Part shown: in pieces, positions 18,722 to 19,797 of the stretch
How the letters are laid out: each line of letters begins with the position of its first letter
Position numbering within the stretch: position 1 is the stretch's first letter
Source of the DNA: the human T2T-CHM13v2.0 reference genome, Homo sapiens
Direction of reading: 5' to 3'
NCBI GenBank assembly: GCA_009914755.4
Contig: CP068257.2
Span: 44,896,001-44,960,000 of the forward strand
DNA length: 64,000 bases
Made by a program: the position numbers and the translations under genes
Notes under the pieces: generated by a model
The model's input: only the letters and a program-made list of their open reading frames with translations
Told to the model about the DNA's origin: nothing
The model's database searches: none

Positions 18722-19003
18722 TTTTTTTTTTTTTTTTTTTTTTTTAGATAATGTCTTTATTGCCCAGGCTGGCTCTCACTGCAACCTCCACCTTCCAGGT
18801 TCAAGCAATTCTCATGCTTCAGCCTCCCGAGCAGCTGGGATTACAGGCACACACCACCACACTGAGCTAATTTTTTGTATTTTTAGCAGAGATGGGGTTT
18901 TGCCATGTTGGCCAGGCTGGTCTCAAACTCCTGGCCTCAAGTGATCTGCCTGCCTCGTCCTTCCAAAGTACAGGGATTACAGGTGTGAGTCACTGCAACC
19001 TGC
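18722..19003 (-). mobile_element. Alu SINE (diverged); ends 265 nt upstream of coding exon 2
   Basis: Antisense Alu consensus with poly-T start. Confidence 0.8.
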
Positions 19004-19267
19004 CTCTGCTGGCTCTTCTGTAGTCCAGATTTTCTGTAATAAAATCCTATTTTATTTTTGTATTAAGAAAAATAAATCTGTAAGCTATTTTTAAGAGAAA
19101 ACAATGATGTTCATTACAACATTGTGCAGAATAGTTATTAGTTGGAAACTACCTAAATTTCCACTAATGGGGTAATGGTATATTTCGGGGTATTTTGGTT
19201 TCTACATTAAAATGTTAATTACTTGTTTCTTAAATTTTACATTGCTTAGTATTTTTATTTTGTTTTA

Positions 19268-19359
19268 GGTAAACTTTGGAGTCGGAGTTTAAAACTAGCT
19301 TATACTCTACTTAATAAACTGACAAGTAAGAATGAACCTCTACTTAAACCTGGAGACAG
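19268..19359 (+). CDS. DIP2A: DIP2-family coding exon 2: (G)KLWSRSLKLAYTLLNKLTSKNEPLLKPGDR
   Basis: Acceptor ttttgttttag|GTAAAC. Donor AGA|gtaagt at 19360. 92 nt, phase 2 in, phase 0 out. Confidence 0.8.
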
Positions 19360-19494
19360 AGTAAGTAACTAGAATGTCACTTTGTTGGAAGGAGCAAAAG
19401 CAGGGACTTAAATAATCTGTTTCATTGAAATTAGTGTTCTATCATTTAGTTAGAATTACAGCATTAATACAAGGGATTTAAAATCAGCAGTGAG

Positions 19495-19797
19495 GACTGG
19501 GTGCGGTGGCTCATGCCTGTAATCCTAGCACTTTGGGAGGCTGTGGTGAGCGGATTGCCTGAGCTCAGGAGTTTGAGACCAGCCTGGGCAACATGGCAAA
19601 ACCCTGTCTCTACTAAAAATACAAAAAATTAGCTGGGCGTGGTGGTGCGTGCCTGTAATGCCAGCTACCCGGGAGGCTGAGGCATGAGAATCTCTTGAAC
19701 CCAGGAGGTGGAGGTTGTAGTGAGCCAAGATCTCGCCACTGCACTCCAGCCTGGCGACAGAGTGAGACTCCGTCTCAAAGAGAAAAAAAAAAAAAAG
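19495..19797 (+). mobile_element. Alu SINE in sense orientation; starts 136 nt downstream of coding exon 2 and is inverted relative to the Alu at 18722-19003
   Basis: GGACTGGGTGCGGTGGCTCATGCCTGTAATCC...poly-A. Confidence 0.88.

What the first reader, a model, noticed from the sequence alone, without database searches (positions are those of the whole stretch)
18722..19797. Frame-shifting 92-nt exon tightly bracketed by an inverted Alu pair
Coding exon 19268-19359 is 92 nt, so skipping it would shift the frame. It sits between an antisense Alu ending 265 nt upstream (18722-19003) and a sense Alu starting 136 nt downstream (19495-19797). Closely spaced inverted Alus flanking an exon is the configuration known to form intramolecular dsRNA. 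This promotes exon skipping, back-splicing into circRNA, and ADAR A-to-I editing.
Basis: partly seen in the sequence, partly recalled or inferred. Interest (0 to 1): 0.5.

Follow-up and report, generated by a model that had tools for sequence, protein, structure and literature searches.

The report
DIP2A exon between inverted Alus
A normal, conserved 92-base coding exon of the human DIP2A gene lies between two old Alu repeats in opposite orientation, a common arrangement in Alu-rich genes that I could not link to any special splicing or circular-RNA outcome.

Summary
The exon is 19269-19360 (92 nt). An antisense Alu (18722-19003/4) ends 265 nt upstream and a sense Alu (19494/5-19796) starts 134 nt downstream. 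Both have poly(A) tails and target-site duplications.

The window is human DIP2A. Published DIP2A peptides match it 100% in four exon pieces.

As RNA, the two Alus are predicted to pair over about 250 bp. Intronic dsRNA, and some promiscuous ADAR editing, is therefore a reasonable inference.

Nothing makes this exon special:
- 23 of 29 internal DIP2A exons in the window would also shift the frame if skipped.
- Random placement of the window's 27 Alus gives an equally tight inverted bracket in 8-19% of trials.
- All 13 antisense Alus in the upstream intron pair with the downstream Alu. The nearest is among the weakest partners.
- At 92 nt the exon is far below the size of exons that circularise alone.
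- The antisense Alu lies outside the roughly 150-nt zone where Alus affect splicing.
- An RNase R-treated H9 cell dataset lists two DIP2A circles. Neither appears to involve this exon.

Skipping, back-splicing and editing could not be tested here because that needs RNA-seq. Verdict: an ordinary instance of a textbook configuration, of low interest.

The parts
19269..19360 (+). 92-nt internal coding exon of DIP2A, probably exon 9 of 38 by my memory of the RefSeq model. It encodes the start of the first AMP-binding (fatty acyl-AMP ligase-like) domain.
   Evidence: The splice signals and in-frame joins to 1791 and 22302 are, and the translation is. Homologues at 60-100% identity carry PF00501. 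PDB matches are fatty acyl-AMP ligases.
18722..19004 (-). Antisense AluS-like element with a T24 tail at 18722-18745. It has a deletion of about 19 nt near its 3' end and is flanked by the target-site duplication TCTGCTTGC/TCTGCTGGC.
19494..19796 (+). Sense AluS-like element with an A14 tail, flanked by the target-site duplication GCAGTGAG/GCAGTGAA. It is the only Alu in the downstream intron.
19005..19493 (+). Loop of about 490 nt that the Alu-Alu duplex would enclose. It holds the exon, its branch point and polypyrimidine region, and its donor.
   Evidence: Minimum-energy fold of 18700-19820.
1792..19268 (+). Upstream intron of 17,477 nt, with a GC donor (ATG|GCAAGT). It contains 13 antisense and 2 sense Alus, and all 13 antisense copies can pair with the downstream Alu.
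19361..22301 (+). Downstream intron of 2,941 nt.
1594..1791 (+). Upstream DIP2A exon, ending ...AVYTLTYG. Its donor is probably the one used by a circRNA junction reported in H9 cells.
   Evidence: The Szabo et al. junction is chr21:47931527|47924273. The coordinate mapping is inferred.
22302..22412 (+). Downstream DIP2A exon (VALVFPNSDP...PLTRK).

Best explanation
This is a constitutive, deeply conserved coding exon of human DIP2A. During primate evolution it acquired two independent AluS insertions in its flanking introns, which happen to lie in opposite orientation.

In the pre-mRNA the sense Alu is transcribed about 130 nt after the exon's donor. It can then zip up with the antisense Alu about 490 nt behind it, or with any of 12 others further upstream. 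The result is an imperfect duplex of about 250-280 bp with the exon in the loop.

The most likely consequence is what happens to most such intronic Alu pairs: low-level promiscuous A-to-I editing by ADAR, followed by removal with the introns. I expect no appreciable change to the mRNA. Exon definition of the 92-nt exon has good support from a long polypyrimidine tract, an AG acceptor and a GTAAGT donor. Any skipped product would carry a stop codon 20 nt past the new junction and be removed by nonsense-mediated decay (NMD).

Shown here: the anatomy, the gene identity, the pairing potential and the chance expectation. Inferred: dsRNA formation in vivo, editing, and the absence of a splicing effect.
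For: - **Gene identity.** Published DIP2A peptides (XP_011527800.1, PMC12955711 Table S1) match the window 100% in four pieces. A complete 31-exon chain is present.
- **Exon reality and conservation.**
- **Independent Alu insertions.** Both have tails and target-site duplications.
- **Pairing.** A 226-nt gapless arm at 83%, 250 inter-Alu pairs in the minimum-energy fold, and a duplex energy of -410 kcal/mol.
- **Ordinariness.** 23 of 29 internal exons are not a multiple of 3 in length. Chance expectation is 8-19% per window. A second exon, 31941-32080, is also flanked by inverted Alus. The nearest antisense Alu is one of the weakest of 13 possible partners, at -394 against as much as -467 kcal/mol.
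- **Literature.** Inverted Alus within 2 kb pair and are edited, and distance abolishes the splicing effect (PMC2533698). Short exons circularise poorly (PMC4201285; PMC6376117).
- **Absence from circRNA sources.** No DIP2A circRNA is named in the searched literature. The 92-nt exon does not appear among the H9 RNase R DIP2A junctions. DIP2A is absent from three other circRNA supplement sets as held.
Against: - No RNA-level data for this locus could be examined. Low-level skipping, editing or back-splicing is therefore neither shown nor excluded.
- The configuration has no competing inverted partner inside the downstream intron. The nearest sense Alu inside the upstream intron is about 10 kb away. 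This is the geometry that favours pairing across the exon.
- The upstream intron is long (17.5 kb) and has a weak GC donor. Both features are associated with alternative processing.
- Standard RNA-seq libraries under-sample 92-nt circles, so their absence from lists is weak evidence.
Confidence: 0.75

Rival explanations
1. The close inverted Alu pair loops out the exon strongly enough to cause measurable exon skipping, giving a frame-shifted NMD substrate that acts as a primate-specific down-tuning of DIP2A. It may also cause back-splicing of the single exon into a 92-nt circRNA.
For: - The pair is close, with a loop of about 490 nt, and is predicted to be stable.
- The downstream Alu has no competitor within its intron.
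- Skipping gives a stop codon 20 nt after the junction.
- Pairing across an exon does occur: 8% of edited intronic Alus have their nearest inverted partner in another intron (PMC2533698).
- Miniature introns with 30-40-nt repeats suffice for circularisation in vectors (PMC4201285).
Against: - The exon is 92 nt. Exons of 400 nt or less circularised poorly or not at all in the ZKSCAN1 vector, and very stable hairpins can inhibit circularisation.
- Single-exon circRNA exon medians are 169-253 nt, against 121 nt for ordinary internal exons.
- The antisense Alu is 265 nt from the acceptor. This is outside the 150-nt depletion zone and far beyond the 24 nt of the RABL5 model, where added distance restored inclusion.
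- The junction does not appear in the H9 RNase R list that does contain other DIP2A circles.
- The exon encodes a conserved part of the adenylation domain.
Confidence: 0.1
2. The antisense Alu array of the upstream intron pairs instead with sense Alus, or with the 7SL-like copy, in the intron after exon 24760-24862. This would promote a multi-exon circle of five exons (19269...24862) with a spliced length of 540 nt. The close pair would then be a competitor, not the driver.
For: - The sense Alu at 26807-27100 pairs with the 13 upstream antisense Alus as well as the 19495 Alu does, or better (-357 to -497 kcal/mol).
- The five exons sum to 92+111+124+110+103 = 540 nt, a typical multi-exon circRNA size.
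- A long upstream intron is typical of back-splice acceptors (PMC6376117).
Against: - No such junction appears in the H9 list. No reported DIP2A junction has the matching span of 5,593 nt.
- The close pair at 491 nt should form first during transcription and sequester the nearest antisense Alu.
- There is no RNA evidence at all.
Confidence: 0.1
3. The exon call is wrong. The 92-nt stretch would then be a chance open frame with splice-like ends, or an Alu-derived or cryptic exon.
Against: - The join is exact and in frame on both sides, reproducing a continuous DIP2A protein.
- The peptide is conserved in AMP-binding proteins across animals.
- The exon has no similarity to Alu.
Confidence: 0.01

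Closest known systems
Inverted-repeat Alu pairs (IRAlus) flanking circularised exons (Jeck et al. 2013; Zhang et al. 2014; Liang and Wilusz 2014, PMC4201285)
   Same: There are opposite-orientation Alus in the two introns flanking an exon. They are predicted to pair and bring the donor and acceptor together. The upstream intron is long.
   Different: The enclosed exon is only 92 nt, far shorter than exons that circularise alone. No back-splice junction is known for it. The downstream intron, at 2.9 kb, is shorter than is typical for circRNA flanks.
Alu-driven shift from constitutive to alternative splicing (RABL5 exon 3; Lev-Maor et al. 2008, PMC2533698)
   Same: An antisense Alu lies upstream of a conserved exon and has an inverted partner close enough to pair and be edited.
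   Different: In RABL5 both Alus lie in the same upstream intron, and the proximal one is 24 nt from the exon. Here the partners straddle the exon and the antisense Alu is 265 nt away, a distance at which the RABL5 effect was lost.
Promiscuous ADAR editing of intronic inverted Alu duplexes (Athanasiadis 2004; Levanon 2004; Kim 2004; Bazak 2014; recalled from established knowledge and summarised in PMC2533698)
   Same: The two Alus are 491 nt apart in inverted orientation. The predicted imperfect duplex of about 250 bp is the canonical ADAR substrate.
   Different: Nothing differs in the anatomy. Editing itself was not observable with these tools.

Membership tests
Alu SINE | A dimer of about 300 bp made of two 7SL-derived monomers joined by an A-rich linker. 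| tested here: met
   Each element gives two Metazoa_SRP monomer matches on the stated strand: 19496-19612 and 19632-19778 on the plus strand, and 18887-19000 and 18746-18867 on the minus strand.
Alu SINE | A 3' poly(A) tail and flanking target-site duplications, the hallmarks of retrotransposition. | tested here: met
   The tails are T24 (18722-18745) and A14 (19783-19796). The target-site duplications are TCTGCTTGC/TCTGCTGGC and GCAGTGAG/GCAGTGAA, read.
Inverted Alu pair able to form dsRNA (ADAR substrate) | Opposite orientation, separation under about 2 kb, and a long complementary stretch. | tested here: met
   The arms are 491-498 nt apart. There is a 226-nt gapless match at 83% and 250 predicted base pairs at -410 kcal/mol. 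The 2-kb rule is taken from PMC2533698.
Inverted Alu pair able to form dsRNA (ADAR substrate) | Clusters of A-to-G mismatches between RNA and genome. | not testable with these tools
   No RNA-seq or editing database is available. The literature search for DIP2A and editing gave nothing relevant.
circRNA-producing exon | A back-splice junction seen in RNA and resistant to RNase R. | tested here: inconclusive
   The H9 RNase R list (PMC4506483 Additional file 5) has two DIP2A junctions, and neither appears to be this exon. No DIP2A entries were found in three other supplement sets as held. The stored files were truncated, and small circles are under-sampled.
circRNA-producing exon | For single-exon circles, an unusually long exon. 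| tested here: not met
   The exon is 92 nt, against medians of 169-253 nt (PMC6376117). Exons of 400 nt or less circularised poorly in a minigene (PMC4201285).
circRNA-producing exon | Reverse-complementary repeats in both flanking introns, together with long flanking introns. | tested here: met
   The upstream intron is 17.5 kb and counts as long. The downstream intron is 2.9 kb, which is modest.
Alu-induced alternative cassette exon (Lev-Maor type) | An antisense Alu very close upstream of the exon, within tens of nt to about 150 nt. | tested here: not met
   The Alu is 265 nt from the acceptor. The distance dependence is described in PMC2533698.
Alu-induced alternative cassette exon (Lev-Maor type) | An exon-skipped isoform observed in transcripts. 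| not testable with these tools
   No transcript data is available. The predicted product has a stop codon 20 nt after the 1791-to-22302 junction, so it would be NMD-sensitive and rare.
DIP2 (disco-interacting protein 2) gene, paralogue A | Coding sequence identical to published human DIP2A peptides. | tested here: met
   Four segments of the DIP2A_58 and DIP2A_59 peptides (XP_011527800.1) match at 100%.

The most novel reading that the evidence does not exclude
The tight inverted Alu bracket could combine with the weak GC donor of the upstream exon and the 17.5-kb Alu-dense intron. Together they might make DIP2A exon 19269-19360 a primate-specific, condition-dependent switch. Candidate conditions are ADAR, DHX9 or hnRNP C levels. 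When the duplex persists, the exon would be skipped (NMD-mediated dosage control of a chromosome 21 neurodevelopmental gene) or back-spliced into an unusually small 92-nt circle.
Probability: 0.04. Interest if true: 0.4.

Novelty: already known. Interest (0 to 1): 0.08.

Why it matters
As it stands, very little. Inverted Alus flanking exons number in the thousands in the human genome, and the mechanisms invoked (dsRNA, ADAR editing, back-splicing, skipping) are textbook.

If the pair did cause regulated skipping, that would be a primate-specific way of tuning the dosage of DIP2A. DIP2A is a chromosome 21 gene linked to autism and to dendritic spine development. Nothing found here points that way.

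The practical lesson for the scan is that two features together have low predictive value in Alu-dense genes: an exon whose length is not a multiple of 3, and nearby inverted Alus.

Tried and rejected
1. **PDB search with the 30-aa exon peptide** gave only chance WD40 matches.
2. **The large protein search** returned gene fragments with no names and no full-length mammalian DIP2. It therefore could not name the paralogue. I first guessed DIP2C from memory and rejected that once the published DIP2A peptides matched the window.
3. **Looking for human DIP2A primers or siRNA** in PMC6484760 to anchor the gene found none printed.
4. **Literature searches** for circDIP2A/B/C and for DIP2A with circRNA or editing gave nothing about this locus.
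5. **Supplement searches** in PMC6376117, PMC12003446 and PMC7407233 found no DIP2A rows. Jeck et al. 2013 is not held.
6. **A coincidental span match.** The 5,963-nt span of the second H9 DIP2A junction matches exons 45032 to 50995 in the window. I rejected this because that offset would put the end of the gene upstream of the other DIP2A junction.
Treat 'AluS-like' as indicative only.

Full report
**1. What is in the sequence**

Reading 18500-20000 shows a clean internal exon. A long polypyrimidine run ends in ...ttttgttttAG at 19267-19268, the exon starts at G19269, and it ends at A19360, followed by GTAAGT.

A joint search for donor and acceptor pairs that reproduce a continuous protein gave a single solution on each side. 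The upstream exon is 1594-1791 and joins at 19269. Position 19360 joins to 22302. The exon encodes (G)KLWSRSLKLAYTLLNKLTSKNEPLLKPGDR.

**2. Which gene**

The exon and its neighbour match AMP-binding (PF00501) proteins from many animals at 60-100% identity. They also match fatty acyl-AMP ligases in the PDB.

A protein sequence I recalled for a DIP2 paralogue maps to the window as 31 collinear exons, from 1594 to a stop at 57834.

The paralogue was settled with published data. Two 49-aa DIP2A peptides (XP_011527800.1), printed in Table S1 of PMC12955711, match the window at 100% in four pieces: 51967-52017, 52967-53002, 54069-54143 and 55924-55980. The window is human DIP2A on the plus strand. 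By my memory of the 38-exon RefSeq model, the 92-nt exon is probably exon 9.

**3. The two Alus**

- BLAST of the downstream repeat against the window finds 27 Alu copies, covering 11.5% of the window.
- The upstream copy runs from T24 at 18722-18745 to about 19003/4 on the minus strand. The downstream copy runs from 19494/5 to A14 ending at 19796 on the plus strand.
- In permissive mode, Rfam finds two 7SL-derived monomers in each, on the stated strands.
- Both have target-site duplications visible: TCTGCTTGC/TCTGCTGGC and GCAGTGAG/GCAGTGAA. They are therefore two independent insertions.
The upstream copy has a deletion of about 19 nt near its 3' end.

**4. Can they pair?**

Yes. There is a gapless 226-nt inverted match at 83%. 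The minimum-energy fold of 18700-19820 pairs the two Alus end to end with 250 inter-Alu base pairs. The duplex energy is -410 kcal/mol, against -74 and -111 for the self-folds. The exon sits in a loop of about 490 nt.

The downstream intron (19361-22301) has no other Alu. The upstream intron (1792-19268) has 13 antisense and 2 sense Alus, and the nearest sense copy is about 10 kb from the exon. Pairing across the exon therefore has little competition from within either intron.

The close partner is not special, however. All 13 upstream antisense Alus pair with the downstream Alu, at -380 to -467 kcal/mol, and the nearest is among the weakest at -394. They pair equally well with the sense Alu at 26807-27100, five exons further on.

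**5. Is the arrangement more than chance?**

No.
- Placing 27 Alus at random positions and orientations outside exons gives at least one internal exon bracketed by an inverted pair within 300/300 nt in 19% of trials. Within the observed 265/134 nt the figure is 8%.
- A second exon in the window, 31941-32080, is also flanked by inverted Alus.
- The frame-shifting property is the rule: 23 of the 29 internal exons have lengths that are not multiples of three.
- Skipping this exon would give ...TLTYGGARVSE followed by a stop codon 20 nt past the new junction. That transcript is a clear NMD substrate.

**6. What the literature says about consequences**

- Lev-Maor et al. 2008 (PMC2533698) state that inverted Alus within 2 kb can pair and be edited. 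In 8% of edited intronic Alus, the nearest inverted partner is in another intron.
- The same paper shows that the splicing effect depends on proximity. In RABL5 the Alu is 24 nt from the exon, and inserting 25-800 nt restores inclusion. Antisense Alus are depleted only within 150 nt of constitutive exons. Here the distance is 265 nt.
- Liang and Wilusz 2014 (PMC4201285) found that exons of 400 nt or less circularised poorly or not at all in their ZKSCAN1 vector. They also found that making the hairpin more stable can inhibit circularisation.
- Ragan et al. 2019 (PMC6376117) report single-exon circRNA exon medians of 169-253 nt, against 121 nt for ordinary internal exons.

A 92-nt single-exon circle is therefore disfavoured.

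**7. Direct evidence for DIP2A circles**

No paper in the library names a circDIP2A.

Additional file 5 of Szabo et al. 2015 covers RNase R-treated H9 cells. It lists two DIP2A back-splice junctions, both with low read counts: chr21:47931527|47924273 (2 reads) and 47910632|47904669 (1 read).

Using my memory of the hg19 gene end (47,989,926), the first donor falls at window position 1791. That is the donor of the exon upstream of the 17.5-kb intron. On this mapping the second junction lies upstream of the window, and neither junction involves 19269 or 19360. Independently of the mapping, the first junction's 7,254-nt span matches no acceptor-donor pair in the window.

Three other circRNA supplement sets, as held, contain no DIP2A rows. 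This is weak negative evidence, because the stored files were truncated, few tissues are covered, and 92-nt circles escape standard libraries.

**8. Verdict**

The best-supported account is a constitutive exon whose flanking introns carry two old Alus. These probably form an ADAR-edited intronic duplex that is discarded with the introns. Skipping, circularisation and editing remain untested because no RNA data is available here. The features that could be tested (exon length, Alu distance, chance expectation, non-uniqueness of the partner) all argue against anything unusual.

Noticed in passing
window 1788-1800 (donor of exon 1594-1791): The 17.5-kb intron upstream of the 92-nt exon starts with GC, not GT (CTATG|GCAAGT). 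It is therefore a GC-AG intron. This was the only donor position that reproduces the protein across the junction.
   Followed up: partly
window 52967-53003, 54070-54144 and 55925-55980: A 37-nt cassette exon (ttacAG|TCACTT...GTCGG|GTGAGC) present in the predicted isoform XP_011527800.1 shifts the reading frame. The 'DIP2A' autoimmune-hepatitis PhIP-seq epitope DPPRREGHHRTHRDQRTLGR (PMC12955711) is the out-of-frame reading of the exon that normally encodes ILPGVKVIIAHTETKGPLGDSHLGE. The epitope is therefore not part of the canonical DIP2A protein.
   Followed up: partly
window 25975-26272 (+): A full-length 7SL (Metazoa_SRP) match at 147.8 bits, above the gathering score, lies inside a DIP2A intron. 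It is presumably a 7SL pseudogene, and its Alu-like ends can also pair with the upstream antisense Alus.
   Followed up: partly
window 15814-15918 (+): A full-length U6 snRNA match at 75.7 bits lies inside the 17.5-kb intron. It is presumably a U6 pseudogene.
   Followed up: no
whole window: Alu orientation is strongly biased. Of the 16 Alus up to 19004, 14 are antisense to DIP2A. Of the 11 from 19494 onward, 9 are sense. I have no explanation for this.
   Followed up: no
window 31941-32080, with Alus at 30919-31221 (+) and 32139-32256 (-): This is a second DIP2A exon (140 nt) flanked by inverted Alus. The downstream copy is a partial Alu only 58 nt from the donor.
   Followed up: no
window 18621-18697: A (TA/TG)n-type microsatellite lies immediately 5' of the antisense Alu. 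It gives sub-threshold matches to the repeat-derived mir-297, mir-466 and mir-1277 families on both strands. These are almost certainly low-complexity artefacts.
   Followed up: no
window 1791 (donor), with the acceptor outside the window: A circRNA junction reported in RNase R-treated H9 cells (chr21:47931527|47924273, 2 reads; PMC4506483 Additional file 5) probably uses the donor of exon 1594-1791. If so, known DIP2A circles end just before the Alu-dense intron. The mapping rests on my memory of the hg19 gene end.
   Followed up: partly
window 18866-18990 (+ strand, inside the antisense Alu): The antisense Alu carries splice-like signals typical of Alu exonisation: U-tracts followed by AG at 18746-18747 and around 18874-18880, and CAG|GTGTGAGT at about 18979-18990. 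No evidence of their use was sought.
   Followed up: no
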